Assembly: GCF_000372725.1 (NCBI RefSeq)
Contig: NW_005201732.1
Span: 310,001 to 374,000 of the forward strand
Source of the DNA: Emiliania huxleyi CCMP1516
Lineage: Eukaryota
DNA length: 64,000 nt
Direction: 5' to 3'
The notes below the pieces were generated by a model. It saw only the letters and a list, made by a program, of their open reading frames with translations, ran no database searches and had not been told where the DNA came from. Of the stretch, positions 8,104-55,528 are shown piece by piece (the first letter of the stretch is position 1; each line of letters begins with the position of its first letter). The position numbers and the translations under genes are program-made.

Positions 8104-10379
8104 TCAGAGCGGGATGTTGGAGTGCTTCTTCCACGGCCGCTGCACCTGCTTGTCGCGGAGCAGCTCGAGGTCCTCGCAGATGCGGGTGCGCGTCTCGCTC
8201 GGCGAGATGACCGCGTCGACGAAGCCGCGCTGCGCGGCGACGAGCGGGTTCGCAAACTTGGCCTCGTACCGCAGGGTCTCCTCCTCGACGTTCTTGCCGC
8301 GAAAGATGATCTCGACCGCGCCCTTGGCGCCCATCACGGCAACCTCGGCCGACGGCCACGCGTAGTTGACGTCGGCGCGCAGGTGCTTTGAGGACATGAC
8401 GTCGTACGCGCCGCCGTACGCCTTGCGCGTGATGACCGTCACCTTGGGCACCGTCGCCTCGGCGTACGCGAAGAGGAGCTTCGCGCCGTGCCGGATGATG
8501 CCGCCGTGCTCCTGAGCGCGGCCGGGCAGGAAGCCGGGCACCTGTGCGTCGGGGGCCGGAGAGGTCGGGGGAGGGTCCGGGGAGGGTCCGCGTGGCACGG
8601 AGGCGGGGGCACGTCGACGAATGTGAGGAGCGGGATGTTGAAGCAGTCGCAGAAGCGGACGAAGCGGGCAGCCTTGGCCGAGGCGTCGATGTCGAGGCAG
8701 CCCGCCAGCTCCTGCGGCTGGTTCGCGACGATGCCGACCGTCGCCCCCTCCATCCGCCCAAAGCCGGTGATGATGTTCTTCGCGTAGCTGGGCGAGACCT
8801 GCGCGCACACGCCGCGAGTCAGTTCTCGAGTCTCGAGAGAAAGCAGCCACGCCAGTCGAGGGGGAGGCCTCGAGCAGCTCGCGGTCATCGAGCACGCGCC
8901 GCACCAGCGCGCCCATGTCGTACGGCACGTTGGGATCCTATTCACAGCGGCAGGTGTGAAGAGACGCTGTTCACAGCTCCGCCCATGTCGTACGGCACGG
9001 CGGGATCCTCGGGGACAATCCGGTCGAGCGCCGAGTCTTGGCGCGGGGAGGGCGACGGTGAGGGGCGGGGGGGCGGATCCTGAGCGGTCGCGAGGGGAGG
9101 GGCGGGCAAAGGAGAGGGGCGGGCAAGGGGAGTGGCGGGCGGGTGGGAGCGAGGCGCGGCAGGGAGGGGAGAGGCGGCGAGATGCGGAGAGGCGGCGGGA
9201 TGCGGAGAGGCGGCGGCGAGGAGCGGCGGTGGGAGTGAGGCTCGCCTTTGCGCGCGCGCGAGTCCTCCGTCTCGCGAACCTGCGGGGCGAGGAGCAGGGT
9301 GAAGAAGGGCGGGGCGAGGAGCAGGGCGAAGAAGGGCGGGGCGAGGAGCAGGGTGAAGAAGGGGACAGGGGCGCGACAGGGGGCACGCCACCGGGCGTGT
9401 GTGCGTCCCGGGCGCCAGTGGGGCGGGTCGAGACGCCCTGGGCGGCGGCGAGGCGGGCCGTGGACGGCGGCGCGGCGGGAAAGGGTCACGGGGAGCATAG
9501 GGTCACGGGGAGCGTCTCGGAAAGTCGCACCGGCGGAGGCTCGCGGTTGGAGGAGGGGAGGAAGCCGACCAGACGGCGGAGAGCGGACATGGCCTCGAGG
9601 TCGTTGGCGGCGGAGAGGTGCGCCACGCCCGACGTGCGCGTGTGCGTGCGCGAGCCGCCCAGCTCCTCCGCCGTGATGACCTCGTTGGTGACTGTCTTGA
9701 CAACCTCGGGGCCCGTCACAAACATGTACGACGTGTGGTCAACCATCATCGTGAAGTCGGTCATGGCGGGCGAGTAGACGGCGCCGCCCGCGCACGGCCC
9801 CATGATTACCGAGAGCTGCGGCACCACCCCCGACGCCTCCACGTTCCGCTGGAAGACCTCGGCGTACCCGGCGAGCGACGCGATCCCTTCTTGGATCCGC
9901 GCGCCGCCAGAGTCGTTGAGCCCGATGACGGGCGCGCCGACGAGCATCGCCTGGTCCATGACCTTGCAGATCTTCTCCGCGTGCGACTCCGACAGCGACC
10001 CGCCGAACACTGTGAAGTCCTGCGAAAATACAAACACCCGCCGGCCGTCGACGAGGCCGTGGCCCGTCACGACGCCGTCGCCCGGCGGCACCTGCTCCTG
10101 CATGCCAAAGTCGATGCAGCGGTGCGCCTTGAGCGCGTCGTACTCGCGGAAGCTGCCCGGGTCGAGGAACAGCTCCAGTCGCTCGCGCGCCGTCAGCTTG
10201 CCGCGGTTGTGCTGCGACGCGATCCGCTGCTCGCCGCCGCCAAGCTGCGACGCGAGCACCTGCTCCTCGAGGCGCCGCCGGACGGAGGCCGCCTTGGCGA
10301 GGTGCGGCGGCGCCGCCAGCGCAGCGTTCGACGAGCTGCTCCGCGCGAAGAGGCGCACGGAGCGGGCCAGTCCAGCCAT
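8104..10379 (-). CDS. PCCB: Propionyl-CoA carboxylase beta chain, mitochondrial-type presequence, multi-exon
   Basis: [64 protein letters not shown]-terminal [10 protein letters not shown]. Confidence 0.97.
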
Positions 10380-13156: not shown

Positions 13157-16100
13157 TCAGAGCTCGCGCATCGCGGCGCCGCCGTGGCCGTCGAAGGCGA
13201 GCTCGTGCGTGTGGTGGCGCGCGAGCTCAGGGCGGTGCGCCACGACGAGGGTGGCCGCCTCGCTCGCGGCGAGGAAGGCGAAGAAGCGCTCCTCGAAGCC
13301 GGCCTCGCAGGCGGAGGTTGGCTCGTCGGCGACGATCAGCGCCGGAGGGGAGGAGGAGCGGCACGCGAGGTAGAGGCGCGCGGCGGCGAGGCGCTGCCGC
13401 TCGCCACCGGAGAGGGAGCCGCCTGCGGGCGAGGCCGCGCCGCCGCGGTCAGCGGCGCAAGCGCGACGAAGCGAAGCGGGGAGGGGGCGGGAGCGAGTCA
13501 GCGGCGCAAGCGTGGCGAGGCTAGTGAGGGAGGGGGGGGGGGACGCCGAGGTCTGGCCGCGGCTCGTCGAGCTCGGCGCCGCCTGCGGCGAGCCTCTCGA
13601 GCCCGGCCCACGCCAGAGCCTACAGGACGGCGCCTTGAGCGCTCCTCGACCGCCCCGACAAACTTCCCAAGCGGCGGACCCAATCTGAGCCTCGAGAAAC
13701 ATGGCGTCAGCGGCGGGCGCGGCGTCGGCCAGCGGCGTGGGGTACAAGAGCTGCGCCTGCGCTCAAAGCGAAGCGAGGAGCTAAGGCGGGGGCTGGCGGG
13801 GGAGTCTCGTCCCCGCGGCGCGAGCGAGGGTGCCCGCAGACAGCCGGTCGGGAGGATGTACGGCCGCTGCGGCAGCGCGACGATCCGGTCGGACGGCGGC
13901 GTCGACACCTCGCCCGCGCGCGCCTACACGCGGCGAGGCGCCTCTGGCCCGTCACTCGGCCGGGGCGCGGCGGCGGTCCGCTCCGCGCGCGCAGCCCGCC
14001 GGCCACACGCCGAGCGCAACCCGCAGCAGCGACGACTTTCCGCAACCGTTTGGCCCCGAGACGAAGACGTGGGCTCCGCGCGGGACGGAGGCGGAGAGGG
14101 GGCCGGCGAGGGGGGGCTCGGAGAGCGCTGGCGGGGCGATGACGACGGACCGGAGCTCGAGCGCCATCCCTGCCGCCGAGCAGCGCCGCCGTGACGAGGG
14201 AGAGAGGGTGGCGCGTGTGCGCGTCGCGGGGTGAGTGTGCTGTCCCGGCTGGCTGCGCGTGGCTGGGGGGGGCGGGGTTGCACCAGAGCCCGCCGTGCGA
14301 GCCTGGACGAGGGCTCGCTCGAGCAGCGGCGGGGCCGCACCCTCGCCGCCCTTCTTGGCGGGTCCGTTGCCGTTTGCGGCTTCGGCGTGCGCCGGCTCGA
14401 GCGAGGTGAGGAGGGCGAGGACGCGGCGGGCGTGCGCCGAGGCGGTGGCTGCAGTCTTGTGCGAGAGGACGAGGTCCTGCTCACAGCCGGAGGTGTGGAG
14501 AGAGGCGTTGTGCTTTTCTGTGAAGAGAGGCGCGGGAGGGGGCGGGGTGAGGGGCGAGGGAGGGACAGGGCGGTGTTCCTTGCAAGCCATCCCAACGTGG
14601 ACGAGGAGGTGGAGCGAGGTGAGAAAGTACTCGGTCGGGTCGGCTCCGCCCGGGGCGGCGCGCACGACGGCGGGCAGCATCGCGGTGAAGGCGGCGAGGA
14701 TGCCTACGCGCCACGCGCCTCACACGCCCTCACCGCGGGGCTGCCTGCCCGCCTGAGCGGTGGAAGGCGGCGAGGGCTGTGCCGAGGTGCCGCAACACGT
14801 ACCCGTCCAGCGAGTCCGAGCCTGGGAGGGGAGGCACCGGTGGGAAGCGAGCGCGCGCGAGAGCAGGGGGAGGGCGCAAGGCTTGCCACCGAAGCGCTGC
14901 AGCTGCAGCTGCGAGGTGCGCCCGGCGGCGGCGGCGAGCGAAGCGTGCAGCGCCTCCGCCTCGGCTGCGCCGCCCCCCATGAGTGCAACCTCCTCGGCGT
15001 ACTCGACGAGGTGCGAGTGCAGCGCGAGCAGCTCCGCCTGCAGACGCTCGAGGCCAGGGCTCGAGGACGCCTCCCGCAGCGGCGCTTTCGGCGGGGGGGG
15101 GCGCTGCGGCGCGAGGAGAAGGCGGGTGAGGAGAAGGGGGGGGGGGGGTCGCCTCCGCGTCTGCCACGCCCGTCGTCATCGTCGCGATCGAGGGGCCGGC
15201 GAAGCGGGTCCAGCAGCCGGCGGCGAAGAAGAAGGAGTAGCAGTAGCAGAGCGGGCCGGGGCCCATCATGAGAGCCAGCTTGACCGAGAGGAGGGACACC
15301 TCGACCAGCGGCTTCGAGAGGGCCTGCGCGAGGGAGGTGCACGCAGGTCTGCTCGGAGGCCCGCGAGGAGGCGGCTGCACGCCTTGTGTCGTCGTCGTGG
15401 GTGGCACAAGCGGCTGCCCCCTCGCCACATCCCTCGCCGCCTCCCCCTCGCCGCGCCCTCCCGGACCCGCTCGCCCGGACCCAGTCGCCGCCGCGCGGGA
15501 GAGGGGGGGGCAAGTGGAGGGCGGGGCGGGGCGGGGCACTGCAGAGGGCGGGACAGTGCGAGCTTGCGCAGGGCAGGGCTTGCGCAGGGCAGGGCGGGGC
15601 AAGCGCAGCCGCGCACCTCGTACAGCTCGACGGCGGAAGAGCAAAACTCCGCCGGGTCTGTCAAGCACACGCCGACTGCGCCGCCGCGCGACGTGTCGGC
15701 GCTGCCCTCCGCCGCCGCCGCGAGCGCGCCGGGCAGCCTGCGCGTCGCCGTCCCCTCCGGAGCGGGCATGAGCGGCGCGTCGGCGCCCGCCGCGCCCAGC
15801 TTGTCCACGACTGTCTGCAGCAGCCGCTCGCGCAGGCAGAGCGCCGCACGCTCGCGCGAGAACTTTTGGAGGGCGGTGGTGGCGGCCGCCGGCAGCGCCC
15901 AGAGCGCGTAGGTCAGCTGCCGGCTGAAGAGCTCCTCCCACTCCCCCTTTGCGAGCAACGAGCCGAGCGAGCCGATCTCGGAAGACACCTTGACCGACAC
16001 TGCGAGCCGCACGCCCAGGCCAAGCGAGAAGACGCCGAGCCACGCGGCCGAACGGCTCCAATACGACGGCATGGCGAGACGCAGCACGGTGCGGAGCGGG

Positions 16101-23712: not shown

Positions 23713-23773
23713 GGACGCACATGCACCTCCCCTGCTCTGCAGACCCATGTGCAGACCCGCCTTCAACGGATTT

Positions 23774-28562: not shown

Positions 28563-28612
<50 letters not shown>

Positions 28613-30815
28613 GCGTGTGGCGGCGAGTGCGAGTCGTTGCGGCTGGAGAAGGAGCTGCTCGAGATGCGGCTCGATGCGATGGGGCAGCTGCTGCAGCTGC
28701 AGGACGAGGCGATGGGCCTCGGCGGGGCGGACGGCGCCGCCGAAGCGGGCGGCGAGGTCGTCGACCAAGGCGGGGAGGAGGAGGAGGGGGAGGGCGACGC
28801 ACTAGCCGCCTCCTCGCTGCGGGCTTTGGCTGCGGGCTGGCGCGAGAAGGCGCGAGGGCGGGTGGCGCTCTCTCCCCCCCCGCCCGACCGCCACACTGCC
28901 AAGCCGCTCCCCTCCCTCCCCCTCCCTCCCCCTCCCCCCCCCCCCCCTCCTCCCCTCCCTCCCCGGTAGGCGCACGAGCAGCTGCTTCGCGCCCAGCGCG
29001 AGGGCCACTCGCGCAGGCGAGCCGTCGCGTACCTCGAGGGAGAGCTTCGCGAGGCGCTCGAGGAGAACGCACGCTTGCGCCGCGAGGCGGTCGAGGCCGA
29101 GGCGCGCTGTGAACGGCGTCTCTCCAGGGCGGGGCTGTGAACAGCGTCTCTTCACACCTGCTGCTGTGAGTAGGCGCGCGTCGCCCTCTCCAAGGCGGAG
29201 CTGGCCGCGGAGGCGGCGGCCAGGCGCGCGTCCGGGTGCGATGTCACGAGGTGTGAACAGCGTCTCTTCACGCGTGTCGCGGAGAACAGGCGTGCGGCAG
29301 AGTCCGAGGCGGCAAAGGTGAGCGGCGCGCACGCGGCCGCCTGCAGCGCCCTCGCCGAGCGGCAGAGCGAGGCGGGCGAGCTGCGCGGCGTGGCGGCGTC
29401 CCTCTGCCGCTCGCTGCGCGACGAGCTGCCCGCGGTCGTGGAGGCCGCGGCGGCGCGGCTCGCCGGCGCAGAGGGCCGCCTCGTGCCCCTCGAGGAGCGG
29501 CTCGAGTTTGCCTGCGGCCGGCTCGCCGCTCTGCCGGCCCTGCTGGCCGCCGCCAAGAGGACGGCCTCGCCCGTGCCTTCGCCGCCCTGCCCCGCCGCCG
29601 GTGCGTCGTGTGCGGAGGGGCCGCCGTCCGCGCCCCCCGCTTCGCCGCCCTCCGCCTCGCCATCCCCCGCCTCGCCGCCCTCCGCCTCGCCATCCCCCGC
29701 TTCGCCGCCCTCCGCCTCGCCGCCCTCCGCCTCGCCACACCTCGCCGCCGAGGTGGAGCGGCTCGCGGCGGAGCGGCGGGCGCTGCTGCGGCGGCTCGAG
29801 CGGCTCGGCGAGGAGGAGGAGGCGCGGGCCCGCGGCGTGCGCGGCGAGGCGGAGGCGCGCGTGATCGCCGCGCGCGGCGAGGCGGAGGCGGCGCTGGCGG
29901 AGGCGGAGGGGGCGCGGGAGGCGGCGGCGAGGCTGCAGCGAAGCGCCGAGGAGAGCGAGGCGCGGGCGGCGGCCGCCGAGGCGGCGGCGGCGGCGCATAC
30001 GGCCGAGGCGCGGCGAGAGGCGGCGGAGGAGCGGTCGCGCGCCGAGGCGTGCCGCACGACGATGACGGAGGCGGTGGGCAGCTTGCAGGCGGAGCTGAGC
30101 AGCGCACGGCAGGCGGTGCAGCGGCTGGAGCGGCGAGCGGCGCGGGGCGCTGCCGAGGCGGAGGCGACGCAGGAGGCGCTGCTCGCGCGGCTGGCAGAGG
30201 CGGAGAGCAGGCACGACAGCGAGCGCGCTCTCGCTCGCGGGGCGGCGGAGGCGTCTGCCCAACAGGCGGCGCGGCGGGCGGAGGAGGCTGCGGCAGACGC
30301 GGCGAGGGAGGCGAGGTGCGCGCTCGAGGCGGAGGCCGCGCGGCTGCGGAGGGAGGCCGCGGCGGCGGAGCTCACGCACCGGTCGCTCGAGCGCGAGCTC
30401 TCGCGAGTGAAGGTGGGCGCCGCACTTGCTCCCGTGGCACGGCCGCCCCTCCCGACACCCCCTGGAGCTCGCCGCCACGCAGGCGCAGGCGGAAGAGGCT
30501 GCCCGCGCCCAGTCGGAGCTCCACGAGGGCAAGATCCGCTCGCGCGACGCGCAGCTCGCGACGGCGCGGCGCGAGCGCAACGCGCTGCTCGCGGCGCTGC
30601 GGACGGAGCAGCGCGCCAACGCCGCCAGCGCTGCCGCAGCAGAGGCACCAGCCGCACCGGCGACGCCCCAGCCGAGGCAGGCGGGTGGGAGGGCGGCGCC
30701 CACCACCGGGGCCGACGATTGTGGCGAGCGAAGCCGCCGCGGGCTCCTGTCCGCCGCCAAACTGGACGAGCTGCGCGCCCTCACCAGCAACTTGATGGCG
30801 ACGGAGGCAGTGTGA
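26773..30815 (+). CDS. SDS22-type leucine-rich-repeat protein with long coiled-coil C-terminus, multi-exon
   Basis: About 5 LRRs (LNLSHNEI, LDLSHNRI, LSLTSNRL, LLLGDNQL, LTLAGNPL); cap LPRLTLLDG; poly-Glu; A/E/R-rich heptads. Confidence 0.8.
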
Positions 30816-33150: not shown

Positions 33151-33164
33151 TACGCATCCCCCCC

Positions 33165-35052: not shown

Positions 35053-38000
35053 TCACACCTCGAGCTCAACCTCAAGCGGCATCTCTGCGAGCTGCATTTC
35101 GCCTCGCCTCGCCTTGCGGCGCGCTCCCCCGGCCCGCGCGCCCCTCTTGCTCGGCTGCTTGCCGAGGATGGCCTCGTTCTTGGCCCTCCGCGCGGCGTTC
35201 GCCTCGGCCTCGGTTCGGATGCCGCTCACGTCGAAGGTGTAGAGGAGCTTGTACAGGAGTACCTTGCAGACGTCTTGGATGAGGAACCACACCAGCGTGA
35301 AGGCCCACGTGAAGAGCACGTGCTCGAGGCCGAGGCCGATCAGCTGGCTGTCGGGCTCCTGCAGCGCGAGCGAGTCGGGATGCATGTTTGTGGCGACGAG
35401 CCCTCTCGAATCGAAAGGGACGAGAGCGTGGGATGCAATGGAGGGCGGGGGCAGAGTGCGCGTCTCATCTCTCGAGTGCAACGCCCGGGGAGACCTGCAC
35501 CCGGCGTCTAGGGGCTGGCTCCTGCGCGTCGAGATCTGCCCTCTCGTCGTACCGCTCGGCCGGGAAGGGCCACCTGACCGCGAGGCCGGTCGAGGCGAGG
35601 GTGGCGACCGAGGCGGCGGCGAAGACGATCTTGGAGGGGGCGCGCGTGAAGAAGAAGGACTGGGTGCGCGCGGCGAAGATCGTCCACCAGTCGCTCAGCG
35701 AGATCTTGAGGTACATCATGGCAACCACCTAACAATCAATGTCCCCCTCAACAGGCGCACGCACATAGGACCACCTGAGGGAGTGAGGAGCAGGGCTGGA
35801 GGAGGGAGAGGCGGCCATGAGGCAAGGAGGCGGCCCTGCGGGGAGGGAGGGGGGGGGGGGGGGGGGGGACCTTCCCGTACAAAAGCGACTCGCGCACGCC
35901 CATCCGGCGGATGGGCGAGCCCGGGTCCTCGGAGGAGAGGGCCCAGTGCAGCAGCAGCAGCGACGAGCCGCACGCGACGAGGCCGATCCAGCCCGCGACG
36001 AGGAAGAGGGCGGGGAGGTTCCAGCGCTCGGGGAGGGGCGAGGGGACGACGTGGTCGTACGCGATCGAGATGATGGTCGCGTCGTTGAGGATCACGATCA
36101 CCACGAGGGCGACCACGGGCAAGTTGAAGGTGGAGGGGATCGCGAGCCCGACCTGTGTGCGAGGGGACCTGTGTGCGCGCAGACGGCGGTGCGGGTGTGC
36201 GGGGTGCTTCCACAAGTGCGCTCGAGGGTCGCAGGGCCGGGAGAAGAGGGTGGGTGTGGGCACGAGCGGGCAAGCGGGCTGCAGCGGGACAAGCGGCCGG
36301 CAGGTGTGCGGCGGAGGGGGGGGTGCGGCAAGGTGCGCGGCGCTGGCGGGCCTCCGCGTCGCTCATGCGGAAGCCGTAGCTGCACTGGACGCCGCCGCAG
36401 GTGGTGGAGTCGTCGGTTCCGCTGCCAAAGTCGCCGATGTCGCTGTAGCTGCATTGGACGGCGCTGCAGGCGGAGTCGCCGCCGCCGGGTCCGCTGCCAA
36501 GGTCGGCGGTGGGGAGGGGGTAGACGTTAGGGTGGCCGGGCAGCAGCTGGTGCGCGGCGTCGTACTGCTGGGGGTGGAAGGCGAAGACGGCGACGAAGAA
36601 GAAGAGGAGCAGCTGGAAGGTGCACGCGACGCGGTAGATGACATAGTTCTTCATCCGCTGGAAGATGCAGCGCGCAATCACGATCGCGTCGACGATGACC
36701 GACAGGCCCGGCTCGGTGAGGACGAGGTCGGACGCCGCGCGCGCCGCGTCGGTCGCGCCCTCCACCGCGATGCCCACGTCGGCCTTCTTGAGGGCGGGCG
36801 CGTCGTTGACGCCGTCGCCAGTCATACCCACCGAGTGGCCGCGCTGGCGCAGCGCCTCGACGATGAGGAACTTGTGCTCGGGGAAGACCTGCGCGAACCC
36901 GTCGCTCTTTTCGATCATCGCGCCGTAGTCGCGGCCGAGCGTGCGTGGCACCTGCGGGAAGAGTCGCGGGCAGGTCAGTCACGGCACACGTTGTGCATGT
37001 TGGGCGCACCGCCACAGCCTCGCAAACACTGCACCCCTCTCCTCCCTCCCCTCTCTCCCCTCGGTGCGCCGAGGACCGTGTCTGGTGTTTGCGAGGCGAC
37101 TCGGAGGTGTGTGTCTGGGAGGCGTGCAGGGGTAAGCGGCACCTCCTCGCCCGGCAAGATGGTCGGCAGGCTGTCCGACGCGCCAATCTCGTCGCCCATG
37201 CCCAGGGCGCGCGCCGTCTCGCGCGCGATGGCACCGTGGTCGCCGGTAATCATTTTGACGACGACGCCCTGCTGCATCGCGCGCTCGATCGTCCGCTTCG
37301 TGTCTGGCCTCGGCGGGTCGAGGAAGGTGAGCATCCCGACCATCTCCATCCCGCACCCCTCGGGCCTCCTCGCGACGGCGAGCGCGCGGATGCCGCGCTG
37401 CGCCAGCTCCTCCACCTTCGCGGCGAAGACGGCGCCGATGGAGGAGCGGTTGGCTTCGTCGCACAGCCGGAGGACCACGTCGGGCGCCCCCTTGACGACG
37501 TCGAAGACGCCACCGTCTGGGCCGCGCAGCGTCGCCTCGGTGCGGCGCAGCTTCGGGTCGAACGGTGTGAAGTCGAGCTGCTCGTGCCTGTCGAGGCTCG
37601 CGGTGTCGAGGCACTCTGCCCCCAGGACGAGCGTGTCGAGCGCGTCCTTGGGAGGCTCCTTCCAGCGGGTGGCGAGGGCGGCGAGGGCGAGGATGGCCGC
37701 GTCGTCTGCGCCCTTTGCGTACGAGAGCACCTCCTGCAGCACCATCTTGTTGAGGGTGAGTGTTCCCGTCTTGTCGGAGCAGAGGACGGTCATTCCGGCG
37801 AGCTGCTCGATCGACGCGAGCCGCGCGACGATCGCCTTCTTCGCGGCGAGGAGGCGCGAGCCGAGTGCCATCGTCGCCGTGCAGACCACCTGCATCGCGA
37901 TCGGGATGGAGGTGTGAAGAGGAAGGTGTGAAGAGGAAGGTGTGAAGAGGAGGTGTGAAGAGACCACCTGCATCGCGATGGGGATGGAGGCGACGAGCAG

Positions 38001-42445: not shown

Positions 42446-43898
42446 TTGTTGCCGCCGGCTCCCGATCCACCGCTGCCGGCTCACGATCCGCAGCCGCCGG
42501 CTCCCGATCCACCGCTGCCGGCTCACGAACCACCGCTGCCGCCGGCTCCCGATCCACCGCTGCCGCCGGGCAGCACGCTGTCTGAGCCGCCGCCGCATCC
42601 CGGCCCACCGCCACCGCCGCTGCCGCCGCCGCCGAGCCTCCTCGGCACGCTCTCGGCGCTCTCGCTCGCTGCGAGCACCGGCGTCGGCCTGGTCGCACAG
42701 AATGGCATCAACACGAACCTTCGGCGGCACGCGCTGCCCGATCCGTTCGTCACGGCGTGCGCCTCCTTCACCGTCGGCCTGCTCACCATCTCGGCGCTGG
42801 CTGCCGCCGAGGCGGCGGCGATGGGCGGCGGCTCGCGGTCGGCGGCCGCCGCCGCGCTGCGCGGCGCGCCCTGGTACGCCTTCACGGGCGGCCTGCTCGG
42901 GCCGTGCTACGTCGTCGGCGCCGTCCTGCTCTCGCGCGAGCTCGGCTTTGCAACCTTCCAACTGTGCGCGACGCTCGGCCAGCTCGTCGCCGCGCTGCTC
43001 GTCGACGCGGCCGGCTTCCTCCGGCTTCGCAAGCGGCGGCCGACGCGCTGGCAGCTCCTCCGCCCTCGCCCCGCTCGCCGCCCTCGAGCCCTCTCCAAAC
43101 CGCCTCCGACCCGCGCGCAGGAAGCTCGCCGCCCTCGCGCTGCTCGCCTGCGGCACAGGCCTCACCGCGGGACGCGTCTCCGCCGACGCCGAGTGGTGGG
43201 CGCTGCTGCTGCTCTGCCTCGGCGCCGCCGGCGCGGGCACCATCTTCCCGCTGCAGGCGTGCGTCAACGACGTGCTCCGCTCGCACCTCGGCACGCCCTT
43301 CCGCGCGACGGCCGTCTCGTTCGCCGTCGGCGCCGTCGCGCTCGCCGCCGTCTCCGCCGTGGCGGTCGGCGCGCGCGGCCAGGGCATCGCCGTGCGGGGG
43401 GGCGATTTGGGGGATGCGGGTGGGCGGTGGAGGGGCGCGCTCTTCACCGCCCGCATCGCGTGAGCAGGCGAGGCCTGGATGTGGACGGGAGGGCTGTGCG
43501 GCGCGGCGGCGGTGGCGGGGATGGTGGTCGGCGTGCCCCGGGTCGGCGCCGCCGCCTACTTCGCCGCCTTCCTCTGCGCACAGCTGAGCACCGCCCTCCT
43601 CTTTGACAGCGTCGGCGCCTTTGGCTTCCCGACCATCGCACCGTCCGCCCGCCGCGCCGCCGGCGTCTCGCTCGCCGTCGCCGCGGCGGCAGCCTACCAG
43701 CTGCCCGCGCCCCGCTGCGCCGCACCCGGCCGAGACGCGGGCGCGGCGCGGCGGTCGGCGGCGCGCCGCGCCTCCTTCGTCGCGGGCGGCGCGGCGGGGC
43801 GCGAGGTGTGGCTGGCCGCCCTGCTCGGGTGGAGGAGGAGGAGGAGCCGGCGCGCGTGCCGCCGCCGCGAGGAGGAGGGGGTGGAGGAGGCGGAATGA
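42446..43898 (+). CDS. DMT-superfamily transporter with two YdcZ/DUF606-like domains
   Basis: AQNGINTNL...PWYAFTGGLLG...GQLVAALLVDAAG, and a second repeat LQACVNDVL...WMWTGGLCG...AQLSTALLFDSVG; start unresolved. Confidence 0.85.
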
Positions 43899-44596
43899 GC
43901 GCGGCGGTGAGAGCCGGTAGTCTGTTGAATGTTGAACTCTTAGCATCAGGATAATCACAACGCCCGGAAATTTGGCAGGTTGGGTGGAGATATAGGTTTT
44001 ACGGAAGGAGTCTTTGACTCAAAGGGAAAAAAGAAACCCAACACGCTGACCGGGCTGTGCCTTAGCACACAAAGAGGGTGACTATACCTCTACAGTGTTC
44101 AGCTCGCGCACCTATAGGGCTCTCTAGGCGACGAGCCTATTTCTCCCAGGGTGCCTATAGAGACTTGGAGCACTTGGAGTGCAGCCAGCAACCACACATC
44201 CACGCACGTGAGCGGCCTTCTTTTTCAGTCCGCGCCCTTGTCGTGCCAGTAAAAGAAAGAAAGAAAGAAAACAGACACGCCAAACGAGGGATGGGACGAG
44301 GACAGGGTCCCTTCACGAGCAGGATTTTGGAAGGACGATCAGGGGGACAGGTGGGGCTCTCCTGCTCCTGACAAGGGACACGACAGGCTCGCAGCGCGGT
44401 GCGCGGTGGACTCCCACATCCACTGGCGGTCTCATCTCAGTCTAGCGACCTGCCTCCAGCTTGTCGCTGGCAGTCTCTCCTACCACAGGCACACTGACAC
44501 AGGGGTGGCAGGGGCTTGGCGGCGGCACGTGTGCTGTGAGAGCGGCGGGAGAATTCTTTTTCCTCTCCCGCTCACATCTGAGACCGGTAAGCGGCA

Positions 44597-46886
44597 ATGA
44601 GAGAGCCGCTTGTGCACTGCTCCCGCAGCTACGAGGAGCTCATGTGCGGCGACGCGGCGATGTCGACATCGCCCCTCGTCGCGAGCCACAAGCTCCAGAC
44701 TCCCACGCTGCAGCAGGGCGCCTCGTCGTCGAGCGGCTCGCAAGGCAGCTCGTCAGCGGCCTCTGCCGCGCCGTCGGACCTCTCGGGGGCGCCGACGGGG
44801 ATGCGCGGGGCCCTCGGCGCGGCTCATCCCGGCGACCTCGAGTCTCCCGCCGCGCCGCGCAAGCAGGCCTTGAGCGACCAGCGCGGCTGCCAGCTGCAGC
44901 CGCCGTCGGCGCCGCAAAAGGAGGGGAGCAAGGTGCACAAGAGGCACTCGGCGCCGCCGCTGGTGGGCGCCGCGCTGGTGGGGTCGGACGACGAGATGCC
45001 CGACGAGATGCCCGACCCGCGGCGCGCGCTCGACATGAGCGAGGCGGACCCGCACAACGTCAACCAGCTCTCTCTCTCTCCGATGAACATGGCGAGCCCG
45101 ACCTGTGTCTCGGCCAAGCACGGCCGCACCTCGGCGGCGGCGGAGGCGCAAGAGGAGCGGCGAAAACGGCAGCGCCGCGCGCCCGCGCCGCCCCTCGCCG
45201 CCGCCGCCGCCTCCTCCTCCCTCGACGCCGCGATGCGCTCGCCGTCCGACTCGCCGCCGCTGCGCGCAGCTCCGCGCTTTGCAGCGACGCCAGGCTCGAG
45301 GGCGACGCCCGGCTCGCCGCTGGTGCCGTCGCCGCCGTCGCGGCAGCGGATGATGCCGCCCTCGCCGCGCGGCGCCCTCGGTCGCGGCATCGGAATCCGA
45401 GAGGCTGCGCCAGTCAGCCTCTCGAGGATGAACTCGATCCGCGACACAAAGGCGCTCCTCCCCCGGCCCCGGGCAAATGGTTGGTTTGGATCACGCCCCC
45501 TCCCACCTCCAGAATTGGTATTGCCCTGCCCCTTTCGGGTTAGGACCATGAACTTCGNNNNNNNNNNNNNNNNNNNNNNNNNNNNNNNNNNNNNNNNNNN
45601 NNNNNNNNNNNNNNNNNNNNNNNNNNNNNNNNNNNNNNNNNNNNNNNNNNNNNNNNNCGAGAGAAAAGAGGATAACGAAGATGAATGAGAGGAAAGAAAA
45701 AAGAGAAAGGGGAGGGGGAAAAAAGGGAAGGAAAGAAGAGCGAACCGGTGGAGACAATAGTGAGACAAGTGAAACAGATAAAGGCAAGAAGGGAAAAAAG
45801 AAGAAGAAGGGTACATAAAGAGAAAACAGGGAGTAGGAAAGAAAAAGAAGAGAGGGAAGAGGGAGAACAAAAGGGAGAAGAAAATGAATAGTAAAAAGAA
45901 AGGGCGGTTAAGAGAAGAAAAAAGAGGAATATAACCATGTCACACTCGCCCACCTAGGGAGGCTCGCCATCCCGACCCACCCCTCCCCTCGCCGCCAGGT
46001 CCTCTTCGTATCCAGCACCAAGCGCTCCGCCTCCTTCTCCGTGCCCGCCGAGGCGCTCGACGGCTTCAAGTTCGACGACCACTTCGTCTGGCTCCGGCCG
46101 CTCGGCTCCGGCTCCTTCTCGGACGTGTACGCCGTCCAGCACAAGATGCGGCCCGCAGAGTACTACGCCATCAAGCGGTCCAAGCGCGAGTTCCGGTCGC
46201 GCGGCGAGCGGGCAGAGTACCTGCGCGAGGTGCAGCTCGCAAACTCGATGCCCGCGCACGCCAACGTGGTCGAGTACCACCGCGCGTGGCAGGACGCGTC
46301 CTTCTTCTACGTGCAGATGGAGCTCTGCCCCGGAGGGACGCTCGGCCAGCTGCTGCTGCGCGAGGGCGGCGCGCTCGCGTGCGTGGCTGGCGAGGCGCGG
46401 GTGTGGGAGCTCGTGCGCCACGTCGCGCGCGGCCTCTCGCACATCCACGCGCACGGCGTGATCCACTGCGACATCAAGCCGGACAACATCCTGCTGTCGT
46501 CGGACGGCGTCTTCAAGATCGGGGACCTCGGCCAGGCGGCGGCGCTCAAGGCGTGGAACGAGCAGGAGGGGGACGCAAAGTACCTCTCGCGCGACCTGCT
46601 CGAGTCGAAGCCCTCCACCGCCGCGGACATCTTCTCCTTCGGCATGGTGCTGTACGAGGTGCGGACAGCAGAGAGCCTGCCTGGCTCGGGGCCGCGCTGG
46701 GACGAGCTGCGGTCGGGGTCGGTGCCGCCGCCGGCCGACTGCGGCGCCGAGATGGGGCGCCTGCTGCGGAGCATGATGAGCCCGCAGCCAGAGGCGCGCC
46801 CCTCCGCCGACGGCATCCTTGATTCGTGCTGTGCGGCCGCCGCCGCCGCCGCCGCAGACCGGTGCGTAGCGGCGGCGATGGGATAG
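44597..46886 (+). CDS. WEE1: Wee1/Myt1-family protein kinase; N-terminal region separated from the kinase domain by a gap
   Basis: LGSGSFSDV, YAIKRSK, HANVVEYHRAW, HCDIKPDNI, KIGDLG, EGDAKYL. Confidence 0.85.
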
Positions 46887-47550
46887 GGCTCCGTTTGGAG
46901 CCACTCACACTGGCGGGAGGCGTCCGATCGAGCAGCGACAGGCGAGCCGTTGTGCCGCAGGAGTAAGGAGTGCAGTATGGCAGAGAGAGATGAGAGAGAG
47001 ACCCGCGCGCGGCACCGGAACCGGGGGAGTGCTGCTGCTGCAAGAGAGAGCGAGCGTGACCCATATTTAACTGGCAGTGTCCTCCTCAACGGCAATAGCC
47101 ACTTCATCTGTTGAGGGCAAATAGAAATACGCGGATAGAGAAATACCCATCGCTCTCCGTACGTGAACAAAAAAAGCGCCGCTTTGTCCTTTGATTGGCC
47201 TTGCGTAGAGACCTCGAGAGACGAAGGCCGCTCCTCCCCGGAGGCCCCTAGTCAAGAATTGACTTCAGTTGGCGGGAATAAATAAATCAGAAATAAATAA
47301 ATAAACCGGACATCCCAAGCTAGGGCTGGGTCGAGGACAGACACGTCCCCACCTTTGCAGGATTTTGCAAAAGCGAGGGGGGAGGGCGCATCGCGGCGCG
47401 GAGAGGGCTGGGCACGGGCACAGGGGATCTAAATAAATCAGAGCGGCTTATGATTTCTTTCCCCTCATCACCGCTACTCAAGGCGGCGAAGCAGCGCGGC
47501 GAAGGATATCCACCTCGAGAACCTCGAGAACACACCACTTGCGCGGTTGT

Positions 47551-49295
47551 ATGTGCGCATTTCTCCTCCTCGTTCCGCTCCTCTCCGGCCTCGTGGCGAA
47601 TGCACGAGTCAAAGACCAGCGCATCCCGGTGACTGTGCTTACCGGTTTCCTCGGCAGTGGTAAGACGACCCTGCTCAACCACCTCCTCACGAAACAGCAC
47701 GGCAAGCGGCTCGCTGTAATCGAGAACGAGTTTGGAGAGGCGCGCACACGCCTGGTCGCTGATGCCAGCGGGCGCCGAGCCCGCACGTGGTCACCGCGCT
47801 TGCCTCCCTCTCACCCAAGGTTGGTATCGACGACGCGCTGCTTGGGAAGAACGCCCGCGAGGAGGCTGAGCCTGAGATCATCGAGATGATGAACGGCTGC
47901 ATCTGCTGCACCGTCCGGCAGGACCTCATTGTCGTGCTCAAGCGGATCTCGGAGAGGGTGAGCTCCGGCAAGCTCAACATCGACGCCGTCGTGATCGAGA
48001 CGACGGTGTGCCTGTCTTGCAGCCGCCACGTCCTGTGCCAGCATTACGACCCCTCGGTGACTGCCACTGCAGGGGATGGCGGACCCTGCGCCGGTCGCCC
48101 AGACCTTCTTTGTCGACGAGTCGGTGCAGGAGTGCTTTCGGCTCGACGGGATCGTGACCCTCGTCGACGCCAAGCACATCGAGCAGCACCTCGACGAGGA
48201 GAAGGCCGAGGGCGCCGAGAACGAGGCGGTGGAGCAGGTGCTGCCCTCGCCGACCGGGCCCTGCTCCACAAGTCGGACCTGTTCACGCCTCGCGCCTCAC
48301 GCCGCATCCCTTCTCACAGGTCGCCTTCGCGGACCGGCTGCTGCTCAACAAGGTGGACCTGGTCGACGAGGGCAATTAATTACATAGCTGAGATCTAATT
48401 AATTAATTACCGGCTGCTGCTCAACAAGGTGGACTTGGTCGACGAGGCGGCTCGAGCCGAGGCGGCGGCTGCCTGGAACATTCCCTGACCCTGCCGGGAC
48501 ACTGTCCTTTAGGCGGAGCTCGCGAGGGTGGAGGGGCGGCTGCGCGCCATCAACTCGTTTGCGCCCATCCAGCGCTGCCAGCAGTCGCAGGTGGCCGTCG
48601 GCGACGTGCTCGAGCTGCGCGCCTTCGACCTGCAGCGCACGCTCGAGATGGACGACGGCTTCCTCGACACGGACGCGGAGCACGAGCACGACGCGTCGGT
48701 CAGCTCGCTCGCCATCGTCCAGCCGGGCGAGGTCGACGCCGAGCTGCTCGAGGGATGGATCGGAGACCTGTTGCGCGACCGGGGCGCCGACATCTTCCGC
48801 ACAAAGGGCATCCTCGCCATCGCGGGCGGGCGCCACGGAGCCGCCTCGACCTCACACCGCCCCTCCCTCGCTGAGGCTGCTGTGAGGCGTCTGTTCGTAG
48901 GCAGCCCGAAGAAGTGCGTCTTCCAGGGCGTGCACATGATCTTCAACAGCGCGCTCGGCGGCGAGTGGGCCGAGGGCGAGCCGCGCGAGTCGAGGCTCGT
49001 CTTCATCGGCAAGAAGTTGCAGCACGAGGAGCTGCGCGCCGGCTTCAGCGCCTGCCTCGCCACCCCGCAGCTCGACGCGCAGAGGCGCGCGGCGCTCCGC
49101 TTCGAGGTCGGGGCCCACGTCCAGTGCAAGGTCGCCCCGGACGAGTGGGCAAAGGGGCGGGTCGTCGCGCAGCTCTACAGGAACACGCCCGAGGAGGGGC
49201 GCGCAGGGGGCGTGTCGCCCTACCAGGTGGAGCTCGACGGAGGAGACCTCATCTTCGTCCCGCTCGACGACGACCAGGTCATCAGGAGGGCGTGA
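47551..49295 (+). CDS. CobW/COG0523 metal-chaperone GTPase with CobW_C and a small C-terminal beta-rich domain, multi-exon
   Basis: [53 protein letters not shown]. Confidence 0.95.
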
Positions 49296-49739
49296 GGGCG
49301 AATCGCCCCGCTGCCAGGCAGGCGTCACGATGTTCCGAGGGCCTCGCATGGGGGAGCGGCATCGCTTGGCGTGCGCGGTATAGAGGTGACCGGAACGTCG
49401 TGCCACACGCACACCACAGACATACACGCAACACGCTCACCCTCGCGTCAAAGTGCCTCTGTGCTCTGCATGGACTCACACACGTTACAGAGGATACTCC
49501 TGGATAGCGTCTGAGGTCTGTGTGCGAGACGAGGGGATACGTGTTGAAAAAATCGCATGAGGTATGCTAAAATCTAAAACGCGACCCTCACCCATGCGCA
49601 CGCGACAGCCGACAGCGCACACGCCCCCTCGGCCATGCACACAAGCCGGTGTCCGCGAGACCGACACACTCTGACCGCCCGCCGCGGCACACCATATAAG
49701 CACAACCACACAGTCCACCTCGCGCGAACGCACCTCTCC

Positions 49740-51643
49740 TCACGACGTCGGCGTGGCGAGAGGCACGGGCTGCTCCTGCGCCAGCAGCCCGTCGCTCGCC
49801 CAGCCGGCCGTGAAGGCAACCAGCCGTTCGCAATCTAGCGGGAGGGGAGAGCGCACGGCGGCGGCGGCGGCGGCGGCGGTGCCGCCCAAGCTGTCTCCCC
49901 ACTCGCTCTCGCCACCCTCGGCGAGGCTCGACGCCTTGCGGACCCACTGCGCCGACCCCCCCTGCTGCAGCAGCAGCATCCGCGTCATCAGCGAGTAGGG
50001 AGACCTCGTGGCGAGATCGTGGCTCTGCCTCCGCCGCTGCGCAGGCGCGGCGCTGTGCCGGCCCCGGCTCAAGTCGTGGGATCTGCGGCGCGGGCTGCGC
50101 GGCTTTGGCGACGGCGCCAGCCCTGGCGCGCGGCGGAGCGGGCTGCCCTCCTCGCCGCTCCCCTCTTCGCCCCCCACCGCCGGCGGCGGCTGCTGCTGCT
50201 GCGGGACCGGCACCGGCACCGCCCGCTCGGTGCCCCTCCCGCTCAGCTCCTCAGCCTGCTCCTCGGCTTGCTGCTCGGCTTGCTCCTCGCTGCAGCCGCC
50301 CACCTCTCCGGCCGCGCCAGGCGTCGTCGGCTGCAGCGAGAGCGGGTCGAGGCGGCGCCACGCCCCTGGCGCCTCCCACGCCACGTCTCGCAGCCACTCG
50401 TGCGCGCGGACGGCCTGCGAGCCGGCGGCCGCCCCGTCCGCTGGCGAGCCGAGGCGGGTCGCCGGGTTGCGCCGCAGCAGCCGCTTGGCGAAAGAAAGGA
50501 GCGGCGGCGGGAGAGACGCGTCGTAGCAGACGCGGAACGCGGGGTTCCCGATGTTGCGGTAGAGCTGCAGCACGTCGTCGACGGCGCCGCGGTCGGAGAA
50601 GGGCGTGTGTCCGTGCGTCATCTCGTACACAAGCACGCCCACAGCCCACCAGTCGACTGGCGGCCCGTGCCCCTGCATCGCAACCATCTCTGGCGCCAGG
50701 TACTCGGGCGTGCCGCAGAGCGTGCGAGACGAAGCCGCCTAGAGGAGGGGGTGCCGACAGGGCTCCGGGAGGGCGCTCGAGGGCCATCCCACGCCGAGCG
50801 CGCGCGGCTCGCCTCCGCTCCCTCCCCGCCCCCCTCTCCCCGCCCTCCCTCGCCGCGCCACCGCTTGGCGAGCCCAAAGTCGACGAGCTTGAGCAGGCCG
50901 CGCCCGTCGACCACGAGGTTGTCCGGCTTGAGGTCGCGGTACATCACCCCCTGCTCGTGCAGGTAGCCGATCGCAGACACGACGCAGACAGCATAGGTCC
51001 GCGCAACCTCGTCCGGCAGCCTGCCGCGCCGCCGGCAGCCTCCGGGCGGAGGACACCCCTCCTGCGCGCGGCGCAGGCGGGCGAGGAGCGAGCCGAGGTC
51101 GCCGCCCATGCACGCCTCCGTCATCAGGTACGTCTTGCCGTTCCGCACGTCGAAGTGCGACCCAAACGAGCGGACGATGAAGTCGTGCCGCGAGCGGGTG
51201 ATGAGCTCCGCCTCCGTCCGCGGGTCGCTGCAGGTGGCCTCGCCGCCCTCGTCGCGCGAAGAGACCTTGAGTGCGAAGCGGCCACCGTGCGTCCAGCTGC
51301 CGCCGCCGAGCGCGAGGGCGCTGCTCCCGGGAGCACGGCTCGCAGAGCGCTCGTCAGCGCAGCAGCGGTCGCCGCGGCACCTGTTACCGAGCTCGCCCGA
51401 GCCGCACACGATGCAGCCGCCGCAGCACGCCTCCCCGCCAGCACTCCCAGCGGTCCTCGCACACGCAGCAGCAGCAGCAGCATCACCACCGACGGTGCCG
51501 CCGACGGTGCCGAGAAGCCACACCGTCCCGGAAGCGCCGTTGCCGAGCACCTTGAGGAAGCCGGCGACGGGCGAGGGAGCGTACTCGTCGGTGTCCTCCA
51601 GCAGGCATAGGGGGTCCGCCGGCGAGTCCTGCGGCCAGGCCAT
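49740..51643 (-). CDS. AGC-group (PKA/PKG-like) Ser/Thr kinase
   Basis: LGNGASGTV, FALK, YRDLKPDN, DFGLAK, TLCGTPEYLAPE, DWWAVGVLVYEM; one intron. Confidence 0.9.
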
Positions 51644-53005
51644 TCAAACGGAGAGGGGACGGCAACTAGGATGGAGAGGGGACGGCGGCCAGGATGCGCA
51701 GGACCTTGGTCTCAACTGTGTGCTGCGCCGAAGGGAGCATCAAGGAGCGATGCGATACCCTAGTACCAACCTTTTTCTCTCCATCTCGCTTTGCTGGTAG
51801 GACGATCGCCGCAAACCCTGTGGTCAGCTCGATCATATTTTTTGTAGGCACCAGAACGCCAAAAAACTAGTATGTCTTCGAGGGAAAAGTAAATCCGAGC
51901 AAACCCGCGGCCGCAATGAATTAAAATGCGTGCCGTCCTCCCATCCCTCCCTTGGGTTGTCTGTTTTCTTTCTTTCTTTCTTTGAATTAAAATGGGCGGT
52001 TTTCGAGGGGAATCTGGAGAATCTGGGAATCTGCTCACGGATCCCCACCTCATCGAGTGGTATTGCTAAAAATCTCCTCATCGCAAACAAACCCTGTCAG
52101 CAGTTCACGGGTATGTTCGTAAGAGCTACATACATCGAAAATCTCTCTCCAAGACATATTTTCAATGTACGTACTTTTAGCTTACTGGGACAAAAGGGAG
52201 AAAGAAAAAGGGAGAGGGGGTTGTGTTCTTTCTCTAGGCCCCTAAGGGCCCTACGCGCGGCGTGAGAGCTCGGTGCTCGGAAGCGAGCTTTGCACGGCGA
52301 TCGAGGATGGCGCGGTTCACCCCCTCCTCACCGAAGCGATGGAGATTGCGTTCCGCGTGGTGTGACACAAATGAGAACAAAACAAACTAAATAAATAACA
52401 AATGAGCAACAAAGTTTGGTATTGCTAAAAATCTCTCTCTCAAATGAGAGGCGGGAGTGGGGAGGGTACGCGGTGCTGTCAATGTATGTGGCTCTTACGT
52501 ACATTCCCGGAGGTGGACTGCTGACAATTTTGTTTCTACCCGGTAGTTTTTCAAGGTGCTCTACAAGTTAGGCACAAAAGATAACAAAACAAAACGAGAG
52601 AGAGATACAGCCATTTAGGATTTCTAGACGATCACTGAGAAGAAAGAAGACAGCTGCCCAGCTTCGGCTGAGGGCTGACAAGCTGCCGAGCCCAAATCAC
52701 TGTGACAGTCGTGATTTCTTGTTGGTTTTCTAAAATCTCTCTCTCTCACTGAGTAGGCCAAAATCCCCACTGGGCCGGGAGCAACCTTAACTTAAGTTAA
52801 AAGAAAGAAAAAAGACCACCCAAACGAGGGATAGGGGAGGAGGACAGGGTTAACTTAAGTCGAGGTCGTGCTTTTTCTTTGGTGAGCCTGTGTGTGTGCC
52901 AGTCCGCGCCAGTCTGCGCCCTTGTCGTGCCAGTGTGCTGTGAGAGAGATTTATCTTAAGAATTCTTCTCCTAACCTTGGGTCGCCGCGCGCCAAGAAGC
53001 TCACG

Positions 53006-55528
53006 ATGCCCGACCCTCCTGCGCTGCCGCTGGACGTCGGACCCGCCGCCGGCGACGCGCGCTCCACCAGTCCCGGGGCGCAGCACGCCTACGTGCAGTC
53101 GCAGAGCCACCTGCTCAAGGCGACGAGCGACAACCCGCTGCCGACGGCGGTGCCGCCGCCGATAGCGGCGGTCGCCGGCCTGCTCGGCGTGCGCCACGTC
53201 CTCTGCCTCATCGGGCTTCCCGAGCGAGGCAAGCCCTTCATCGCCCAGCGTCTCTCCAAGTACCTCTCCTTCTTCCACGGCGCAGAGGTGAAGCTCTTCG
53301 ACGTAAACGAGGTGATGGACCGAGCCGGCGGGCCGCCCGGCTCGGACCACAACGCCATGTTCATGTTCGAGGAGATAAAGGCCTTCATGAACGCGACGTC
53401 GTCCGCCGCGGACCGCAACATGACGGTGCCTCGGGCGGGCAGCGGGAGGTCCGCCCCTGCGAGCAGCTCGAGCCCTCCGTCGCCAGAGGTGCGGCCGGTG
53501 GTGGTGCGGGAGGGGTCGGCCGAGGTGCAGCTGGCGGAGAGCCTGGCCACGCACGGCGAGGAGGAGCTGCTCGTCCACCCGAGCGACCGCCGGCGGAAGA
53601 ACGTCGACTCGGGCAAGGTTGCGATCCTCTTCGCCAACGACACCTTTGCGTGCTTCAAGGAGCAGCGCCGGAGCCGCCGCCACGGACACAGCAGCACGGT
53701 GAGCCTGCTGACCCGCCGCGTGGCTCTGCCCTGCAGGAGAAGTGGTCGGGCACGTCCAAGGAGCGGCGGAGGTGGGCGTCCGAGACGCTCGCAAAGGACC
53801 GCGCCCTCGGCGCCAAGCTCATCTTCATCGAGGTGATTGTCGACCGCGCAGACATCCTCGAGGCCAACCTGCGGGCGCGCGAGCGGGCGAAGAACGGCCC
53901 CACCGCATCGCGCGAGTCGGCGGGTCCGGCGATGTACGAGGACGAGCTGCCGGACGAGTGCCTGCGTGAGTTTGAGGACCGCGCGCGCCGCTTCCAGCGC
54001 ATCTACGTGTCGATGCAGGAGGATAGTTAATCAGTATTAGTAATATTAAAAATCAATAATGAGCGCATCTTCGTGTCGATGCAGGAGGACGGCTCCGAGG
54101 ACGACCTCTCGTACATCAAGCTCATCAACTACGGAGACAAGGTTGTGACGAACCGGATGCACGGCTACCTGCGGATGCGAATCGCCCAGTTCCTCTCGGT
54201 GATCCACCCGACGCCGCACGTCATCTACCTCTCCCGCCACGGCCAGTCTGAGTACAACGTCCTCGGGAAGCTCGGCGGCAACCCGCCCCTCTCCCCCGCG
54301 GGCCAAGAGTACGCGCGCAGGCCCGCGCAGCCGCTGCAGCTCTCTCGGTGGCACGCGACTCGCGCCGCAGCTCTCTCTCTCTCTCTCCCGGACGCCGCCT
54401 CTGTAGGCTCGCGCAGTGGGTGCCGCGCCACATCTTCTACCAGCACGGCGTGCTGACAAAATGCCGCCTCTGGCGCGCATCCGCTCCTGCGCCGCGCCGC
54501 CCTCCCCCCTCCACCGCAGGACCTCCTCCCTCCAGCGCACCATTCTCACCGCCACCCACATCCCGCACCCGATCGTGCCCGCCTCCTCCTTCGACAGCCC
54601 GGACGGCCTCCCCTCGCCGCCCGCCAAACGCAGCGCCCCGCTGGAAGCGGCGGCGACGCCTCTAGCAGCCTCCCGTGTAGGCCTCAGCTCGCCGCCCCGC
54701 CGCGGCTCGCACGAGACGGACGCCGCAACGCCCTCGGGCGGCACGCCGTCCCACCGCTTCCGCTCTCGGCAACGCTCGCGCCAGCTGCCGCCGCGCTACC
54801 TGCAGGGCGACGAGGGGGTGCTGAATGAGCCGGTGTGGGAGCAAATGTCGCGCGTCCTGTGTCCCGAGCCGCGCTGGGGAGGGGCGCGGCAAGGCCGCAG
54901 CCGGCGCCGCGGTCGCGCCGTATAGGTCGCCGCGCGTGTACCGCAACCTCGACGAGATCTTCGCGGGCGAGTACGAGGGGATGACGTACGAGGAGATCAA
55001 GAAGATTGCGCCGAGCGAGGCGACACTCCGCTCGATGGACAAGATCGGGTACCGCTACCCGCGCGGCGAGTCGTACTTCGACATCCTCGCGCGGCTCGAC
55101 CCGCTCGTGCACGAGCTCGAGTCGTACCACGAGCCGCTGCTGCTCGTCTCGCACCAGGCCGTGCTGCGGCTGCTCTACTCGTACCTGATGGGCAAGCCGC
55201 GCCACCAGGCGCCGAAGGTCGAGATCCCGCTCCACACCGTCATCCGAATCACGTACGACGGGTGCGCGACCTAGCCCTGGTAGGAGAGTGCGAAGGAGGG
55301 GCGCCCCCGTCGCCGCCGCCCTCGCCGCCGCCGCCCTCGTCACCGCCCTCGCCGCCGCCGCCCTCGTCACCGCCCTCGCCGCCGCCCTCTCTGAGCCGGC
55401 GAGCGGGTGTGCGCAGGTGGAACCCGCCGTACGAGGAGCGGTTCGTGCTCGGCCCAACCGCCAAGGGCATCCGCAACGACGGCACCATCGACGAGGGCGT
55501 CCTCGAGGACGGACAGACCAACCTCTGA
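53006..55528 (+). CDS. 6-phosphofructo-2-kinase/fructose-2,6-bisphosphatase family protein, multi-exon
   Basis: IGLPERGKPF, DLSYIKLIN, LSRHGQSEYN, TSSLQRT, LDEI, YRYPRGESY, SHQAVLR. Confidence 0.92.

What the first reader, a model, noticed from the sequence alone, without database searches (positions are those of the whole stretch)
48238..48365. Older introns begin with a decayed copy of the following exon
Seen: CobW intron 48238-48319 starts gtgctgccctcgccgaccgggccctgctccacaagtcggacctgttc, while the next exon starts gtcgccttcgcggaccggctgctgctcaacaaggtggacctggtc ([14 protein letters not shown] vs [14 protein letters not shown]). Weaker echoes occur in PCCB 8542-8612 (gtgcccccgcctccgtgcc vs gtgcccggcttcctgcc), LRR 29102-29173 and 29224-29289, and PFK 53660-53736. 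Inference: an age series of the same duplication process, which may explain many introns and the frequent non-GT donors.
Basis: partly seen in the sequence, partly recalled or inferred. Interest (0 to 1): 0.75.

Follow-up and report, generated by a model that had tools for sequence, protein, structure and literature searches.

The report
Introns born from long exon duplications
In the bloom-forming alga Emiliania huxleyi, many introns consist of a 20-45-base copy of the start of the next exon followed by about 40 bases of filler DNA, which likely marks how new introns are born there and would help explain why most of its introns start with GC rather than the usual GT.

Summary
Confirmed and extended. 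The CobW intron 48238-48319 is skipped in transcript-like contigs of 4 of 4 runs, and its start matches the next exon at 33 of 42 bases. A 38-nt filler shared by PCCB and LRR introns was found at 120 or more metagenome loci. In 79 of 104 usable contexts it follows a copy of the next exon (median 26 bp; control 0.7%). The copy supplies the donor (41 GC, 23 GT, 8 GA) and the filler supplies the AG. Another 69 young duplications carry other fillers (AT-rich, 10-11-mer arrays, unclassified), mostly in 57-82-nt units. Best reading: insertions at widely staggered breaks create introns, and the copy then decays. Gozashti 2022 lists 37-nt E. huxleyi introner families with target duplication unknown or absent; these are probably this filler, read from an internal GT. 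Known introner duplications are 3-9 bp, so the long duplication is the new part. The enzyme and empty-site alleles were not found.

The parts
48238..48319 (+). CobW intron (GT-AG, 82 nt), the finding
   Evidence: skipped in 4 of 4 runs; boundaries fixed
48238..48284 (+). decayed copy of the next exon's start; supplies the GT donor (inferred)
   Evidence: 33 of 42 identical on the diagonal
48285..48319 (+). 35-nt filler with the acceptor AG; not a member of the repeated filler family
   Evidence: family profile score -31.5 at the end, -18.8 best
48320..48364 (+). exon start that was copied; coding motif conserved in homologues
   Evidence: 72 of 86 homologues carry the junction-spanning motif
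48333..48447 (+). young insertion in the same exon: 39-bp duplication (38 of 39 identical) around a 37-nt AT-rich filler; likely spliced as 48353-48428 through AAG|GT inside the copies
   Evidence: splicing not shown
48447..48512 (+). CobW GC-AG intron with echo of the next exon
   Evidence: score in top 0.3%; P0027 reads across it
8938..9007 (-). PCCB young family intron: about 28-bp copy, GA donor, 38-nt family filler
   Evidence: same insertion in L011 at 98.3% identity
8542..8612 (-). PCCB GT-AG intron with echo
   Evidence: top 1.1%; called by frame and homology, not RNA-laid
29102..29173 (+). LRR family intron, GC donor in the copy
   Evidence: family score 59; contig pieces end at about 29100 in 4 of 4 runs (table 3)
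29224..29289 (+). LRR older family intron
   Evidence: family score 45.5; an X1 contig piece starts at 29287
14477..14578 (-). RNA-bridged GA-AG intron with decayed family filler and no measurable echo (oldest stage, inferred)
   Evidence: family score 23.5 vs at most 6.4 in 3 shuffled windows; joint in 4 of 4 runs
14704..14782 (-). RNA-bridged GC-AG intron with strong echo
13924..13999 (-). RNA-bridged GC-AG intron with strong echo
54606..54680 (+). RNA-bridged PFK GC-AG intron with strong echo
54321..54406 (+). PFK GC-AG intron with echo
   Evidence: top 1.1%; junction by homology
54847..54925 (+). PFK GT-AG intron with echo
   Evidence: top 1.6%; junction by homology
53660..53736 (+). PFK GA-AG intron; echo not significant on its own
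   Evidence: 18.8th percentile
53996..54089 (+). young insertion: 28-bp duplication and AT-rich filler, splice sites inside the copies (54019-54084)
37883..37990 (-). young insertion: 30-bp duplication, filler a 14-mer array of the family core, CAG|GT inside the copies (37890-37967)

Best explanation
Introns in this alga are likely born as insertions: a widely staggered break (inferred) duplicates 20-45 bp of exon around about 40 nt of filler DNA, the upstream copy supplies a GT, GC or GA donor and the filler's end (or the second copy) supplies the AG, so splicing would restore the exact mRNA. Shown: the copy-filler-copy anatomy at many loci, a narrow unit length near 70 nt, several filler types, one filler family with a fixed 3' end, and a residual 5' echo in RNA-bridged introns. 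Inferred: selection keeps the spliceable insertions; the intronic copy then decays, and the CobW intron (79% identity) is a middle-aged case; taking donors from GC-rich coding DNA feeds the GC and GA donors. The most likely filler source is nick-primed synthesis that copies short existing templates (family, 10-11-mer arrays) or none (AT-rich). The enzyme is not identified, and I put about 0.4 on that step.
For: Family: 79 of 104 contexts carry the copy vs 0.7% of 1500 mismatched pairs; median 26 bp; intron length 59-79 nt; G before the copy in 70 of 79. 113 of 124 contexts end at the same AG motif. Removing copy plus filler joins adjacent Pfam positions in L078 (SecY 243|245) and L093 (GCV_T 211|214); 10 of 16 hand-picked loci hit a Pfam family on at least one side. 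The alternative 37-nt intron from the GT inside the filler keeps frame in 23 of 66, which is chance. Other fillers: 69 young duplications, 54 with 57-82-nt units, 20 anchored at an AG|G edge vs 9% expected, 13 without splice sites vs 40% expected. Ageing: rho -0.32; one RNA-bridged decayed member. Echo in older introns. Gain hint: homologues P0030, P0032 and P0034 read into an intron elsewhere but run unbroken through the CobW junction; P0002 does the same at PFK junctions.
Against: No empty-site allele was seen in the 3 locus pairs aligned. Homologue P0012 has an intron at the same codon as the young PFK insertion. Only 7 of 42 older introns show an individually clear echo, and the second-base match is not significant. 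A weak 3' echo also appears in the extended set (p=0.009) but not in RNA-bridged introns (p=0.13-0.18). Read-through homologues may come from transcripts with retained introns rather than from DNA. No family intron with a fresh copy was seen as a full joint, only as contig ends. 34 of the 51 window introns were called by hand. Metagenome contigs carry no species label. No other eukaryote genome was available as a control.
Confidence: 0.72

Rival explanations
1. Target-primed reverse transcription: a retroelement enzyme copies the 3' end of a short RNA, possibly an excised intron, at a nick, and the second nick 25-30 bp away makes the long duplication.
For: Fixed 3' end in 113 of 124 contexts, with variable 5' junctions (median spacer 4 nt). 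L032 and L058 share the 33 nt upstream of the filler while their exons differ, as if a whole intron was copied (one case). Long duplications for some non-LTR elements are recalled, not checked.
Against: AT-rich and 10-11-mer fillers share the duplication size and unit length without a common template. No reverse transcriptase or endonuclease domain in the 24 window ORFs scanned. No poly(A) tail in the listed contexts.
Confidence: 0.3
2. No gain: spliced mRNA or cDNA repairs a break in an old intron and overwrites its 5' half with the next exon's start.
For: It explains a 5'-only echo anchored exactly at the junction. P0012 has an intron at one young site.
Against: Young insertions with splice sites inside the copy echo both sides (3' scores 36-39). 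Close homologues with other read-through introns are unbroken at these junctions. Family members share no 5' part.
Confidence: 0.1
3. The old echoes are composition artefacts (GC 65%, GCC repeats, splice consensus), unrelated to the young insertions.
For: Most older introns score within the mismatched range (35 of 42). The first annotation-free control was weak (65 vs 48 of 196).
Against: Within-gene permutation p=6e-5; offset and reverse-complement controls score lower; CobW 33 of 42.
Confidence: 0.07

Closest known systems
Introners (Gozashti 2022 PMC9860276, passages and supplement rows; Gozashti 2025 PMC12130899, passages and supplement rows; Roy et al. 10.1101/2020.10.14.339549, passages)
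   Same: [quoted passage not shown] E. huxleyi is listed: 5 families, three of mean length 37 nt with GC 54-57%, duplication '?' or 'N'. In 2025 there are 3 families, classed unknown or LTR. The filler here read from its internal GT is 37 nt in 61 of 66 with GC 53.9%, so it is probably the same family.
   Different: Reported duplications are 3-9 bp, 3-8 nt in Polarella and 2-4 nt for the E. huxleyi rows; here the median is 26 bp and the copy is about 40% of the intron. Unrelated fillers share the anatomy. The family sequence was not in the supplements searched, so the match rests on length and GC only.
[quoted passage not shown]
   Same: Filler between direct repeats made at staggered breaks; repeats fade with age.
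   Different: Daphnia exon-intron repeats are 4-12 bp; here 20-45 bp, narrow unit length, and recurrent filler families.
Tandem genomic duplication model (PMC3443670, passages; potato case PMC4974935, abstract)
   Same: Donor taken from duplicated exon sequence; the AG|G-inside-the-copy cases follow this logic.
   Different: There is no filler in the classic model, and the intron's 3' part there copies adjacent gene sequence. Here it is new sequence, and the process is recurrent, not a single case.
GC-AG majority in E. huxleyi (PMC4028052, passages)
   Same: 56-65% GC donors and some GA; young family donors here are 41 of 72 GC.
   Different: That paper ascribes the GC donors to genome GC content and proposes no origin by duplication.

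Membership tests
Introner (filler family) | similar intron sequence at many unrelated loci | tested here: met
Introner (CobW intron 48238-48319 itself) | filler belongs to a repeated family | tested here: not met
   score -31.5 against the one family profiled; other families not profiled
Introner (filler family) | one splice site carried, the other taken from the target duplication | tested here: met
   72 of 79 copies start GC, GT or GA; the filler ends in AG
DNA-transposon introner | short fixed target duplication of 3-9 bp | tested here: not met
   median 26 bp, range 10-53
DNA-transposon introner | terminal inverted repeats at both ends | tested here: inconclusive
   L034 folds as a long hairpin (z -4.5) but 3 other folded copies do not; only 9 of 93 show 3 or more inverted bases upstream
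Introner (filler family) | removed by splicing | tested here: inconclusive
   contig ends at both LRR introns and one decayed member bridged; no full joint of a fresh copy
Introner (filler family) | autonomous partner encoding the mobilising enzyme | not testable with these tools
   no genome held; none in 24 window ORFs
Tandem genomic duplication | intron made only of duplicated gene sequence | tested here: not met
   35-nt filler; no 3' echo in CobW (score 2) or in RNA-bridged introns
Break-repair intron gain (Daphnia type) | flanking repeats of 4-12 bp | tested here: not met
   20 bp or more by selection; median 26 bp
Break-repair intron gain (Daphnia type) | empty-site alleles or orthologues | tested here: inconclusive
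   none in 3 aligned pairs; indirect protein hint

The most novel reading that the evidence does not exclude
Most E. huxleyi introns were built by this one process, and the fillers are reverse-transcribed 3' ends of excised introns: introns seed new introns by nick-primed copying, with the long target duplication supplying the donor. That would give the GC-AG majority and the 10-11-mer intron arrays a single origin.
Probability: 0.15. Interest if true: 0.92.

Novelty: new variant of a known kind. Interest (0 to 1): 0.74.

Why it matters
How new spliceosomal introns arise is an open question, and proven cases are few. Here young and old stages sit side by side at roughly one young event per 2-4 kb of the sampled gene-rich DNA, a sample biased towards family loci. 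Each event carries its own clock in the identity of the copy. The long duplication fits neither known introner nor known break-repair sizes, which points to an uncharacterised insertion chemistry. It offers a testable origin for the GC donors of a globally important alga. It also suggests that catalogued 37-nt introns in the reference annotation have the wrong donor.

Tried and rejected
No whole genome is held, so no genome-wide test was possible. No listed run is on record as RNA; the laid runs are contigs. I dropped joints that skipped over 1 kb between low-complexity repeats, one 668-nt joint with TC..TC ends, one that goes back, and four CobW joints that looked like a paralogue (47690, 47929, 48239, 48439); the joint tables were cut (195 and 28 rows unseen). 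The idea that the CobW filler is a decayed family member was rejected. The first age correlation (rho 0.43) was discarded because it counted reverse-strand self-hits; one search replaces it. The first annotation-free scan had a weak control. The 37-nt intron reading was rejected. Rfam found 0 hits in 4 loci, and viral contigs gave 0 matches. Three look-ups of earlier findings returned nothing. Ten paper searches listed no description of long-duplication introns in haptophytes. Term look-ups in PMC2784329, PMC10290126, 10.1101/2024.05.26.595999 and PMC11282704 found none either. The 2013 genome paper is not held, and its supplement may bear on novelty. The 2022 supplement was cut when stored, and bioRxiv supplements are closed.

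Full report
Organism and data. The window is GC-rich eukaryotic DNA. A PFK exon matches a UniRef protein of Emiliania huxleyi at 100% over 94% of the query. No whole genome is held. Contigs of five runs from five studies, RNA by guess, were laid on 38000-57700 and 12900-31000. They gave 17 bridged introns, 15 from the joint tables and 2 from contig pieces. All 17 resolve to G[TCA]..AG.

The observation. The CobW intron 48238-48319 is skipped in 4 of 4 runs. Its first 47 nt resemble the next exon, with 33 of 42 identical on the main diagonal, a score reached by 2 of 3000 random starts. The exon keeps the conserved motif (72 of 86 homologues), so the intronic copy is the one that changed. The remaining 35 nt are unrelated to the upstream exon. 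The same exon was duplicated again recently (48333-48447, 38 of 39 identical, AT-rich filler), so an old and a young copy lie side by side.

Generality in the window. For the 17 bridged introns the 5' echo has permutation p=7e-4 and the 3' side p=0.31. Without CobW, p=0.0012. I added 34 introns called by homology, contig ends or frame. Removing the 5 named and 4 young ones leaves 42, with p=8e-5, and p=6e-5 within genes. Only 7 of 42 are individually clear. Of all 51, 50 next exons start with G, and all 5 GA donors precede GA. Overall second-base agreement is not significant (p=0.11), and 11 GT donors precede GC exons. A weak 3' echo appears in the 42 (p=0.009).

The young stage. PCCB 8938-9007 and LRR 29102-29173 and 29224-29289 share a filler. 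Of these, 113 end about 18 nt later in the same AG motif, and 104 had enough flank. In 79 of 104, a copy of the following sequence lies upstream (control 0.7%). The copy has median length 26 bp and begins GC 41, GT 23 or GA 8 times, with G before it in 70 of 79. The whole unit is 59-79 nt. A few contexts are tandem re-copies or the same site seen twice, so independent events are somewhat fewer. Several of the 25 misses show gapped copies by eye. Removing copy plus filler joins adjacent Pfam positions at 2 of 16 hand-picked loci, and 8 more hit on one side. The contigs are unlabelled; L011 is 98.3% identical to the window and carries the PCCB insertion.

Other fillers. An annotation-free scan of 244 kb found 69 near-perfect duplications of 20-50 bp without the exact core: 12 AT-rich, 19 with 10-11-mer arrays, 1 with a 14-mer array, 7 family-like and 30 other. 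54 have 57-82-nt units. 20 put AG|G at the edge of the copy (9% expected), 36 inside it (51%) and 13 nowhere (40%). Some of the 69 are ordinary dispersed repeats.

Ageing. Copy score falls as the filler diverges (rho -0.32, p=0.001, n=104). Changes in the intronic copy lean from A/T to C/G (49 of 87 start from A or T, 56 end in C or G). The bridged intron 14477-14578 keeps a decayed family filler but no echo. The CobW filler is not of this family.

Gain or replacement. Three CobW homologues at 79-81% identity read into an intron elsewhere yet run unbroken through this junction, and P0002 does the same for PFK. This suggests gain in the Emiliania line, if those proteins were called on DNA. P0012 has an intron at the young PFK site, which counts against gain or shows parallel gain. 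No empty site was seen in 3 aligned pairs.

Mechanism. The anatomy is shown. Staggered breaks 20-45 bp apart, fill-in with about 40 nt of filler, selection for spliceable products and decay of the copy are inferred. The family's fixed 3' end, where other fillers more often use internal sites, suggests a template with a defined end. One pair of loci shares a whole intron 5' part. Both fit RNA-templated copying but do not prove it.

Prior knowledge. Introners that take a GT, GC or GA donor from a 3-9-bp duplication are known. Supplement rows list E. huxleyi introner families, three averaging 37 nt at 54-57% GC with duplication unknown or absent. The filler read from its internal GT is 37 nt at 53.9% GC, but that reading keeps frame in only 23 of 66 cases. 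The family is therefore probably catalogued already, with the donor misplaced. Daphnia repair introns have 4-12-bp repeats. The GC majority was ascribed to base composition. I found no description of the long duplication in ten searches, and the 2013 genome paper could not be read.

Verdict. Real, recurrent and a new variant of known intron-gain routes. Interest 0.74.

Noticed in passing
window 17158-18352: Small LTR-like element: two direct repeats of about 190 bp with TG..CA ends and a 5-bp flanking duplication, at the start of an 890-aa open frame with no Pfam hit; very high contig depth in run X11.
   Followed up: partly
window 35729-35870 (minus): ATPase intron that looks like an old intron followed directly by a 46-nt unit echoing the next exon, with no exon between: a possible second insertion at an existing acceptor.
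   Followed up: no
window 21026-21390 and 39330-39440: Dispersed repeat sharing 8-13 nt with the filler family's end motif; a possible source element end.
   Followed up: no
L032 and L058: Two different genes share the 33 nt upstream of the family filler while their exons differ; possible whole-intron copying.
   Followed up: partly
L017, L019, L027, L042, L073, L082, L045, L005: Copy-plus-filler units repeated two or three times head to tail, as expected from slippage between the copies.
   Followed up: no
window 54847-55528: The UniRef model P0001 reads into intron 54847-54925 and stops early; homologues and RNA contigs show the PFK gene continues.
   Followed up: yes
window 11265-11365 (minus) and 11514-11616: Two more young duplications with filler (AT-leaning, and 11-mer array) in a gene fragment beside an assembly gap.
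   Followed up: partly
window 32123-33535: Adjacent 125-bp and 126-bp tandem arrays.
   Followed up: no
L032 vs L047: A 105-bp plain tandem duplication present in one and absent in the other of two near-identical contigs.
   Followed up: no
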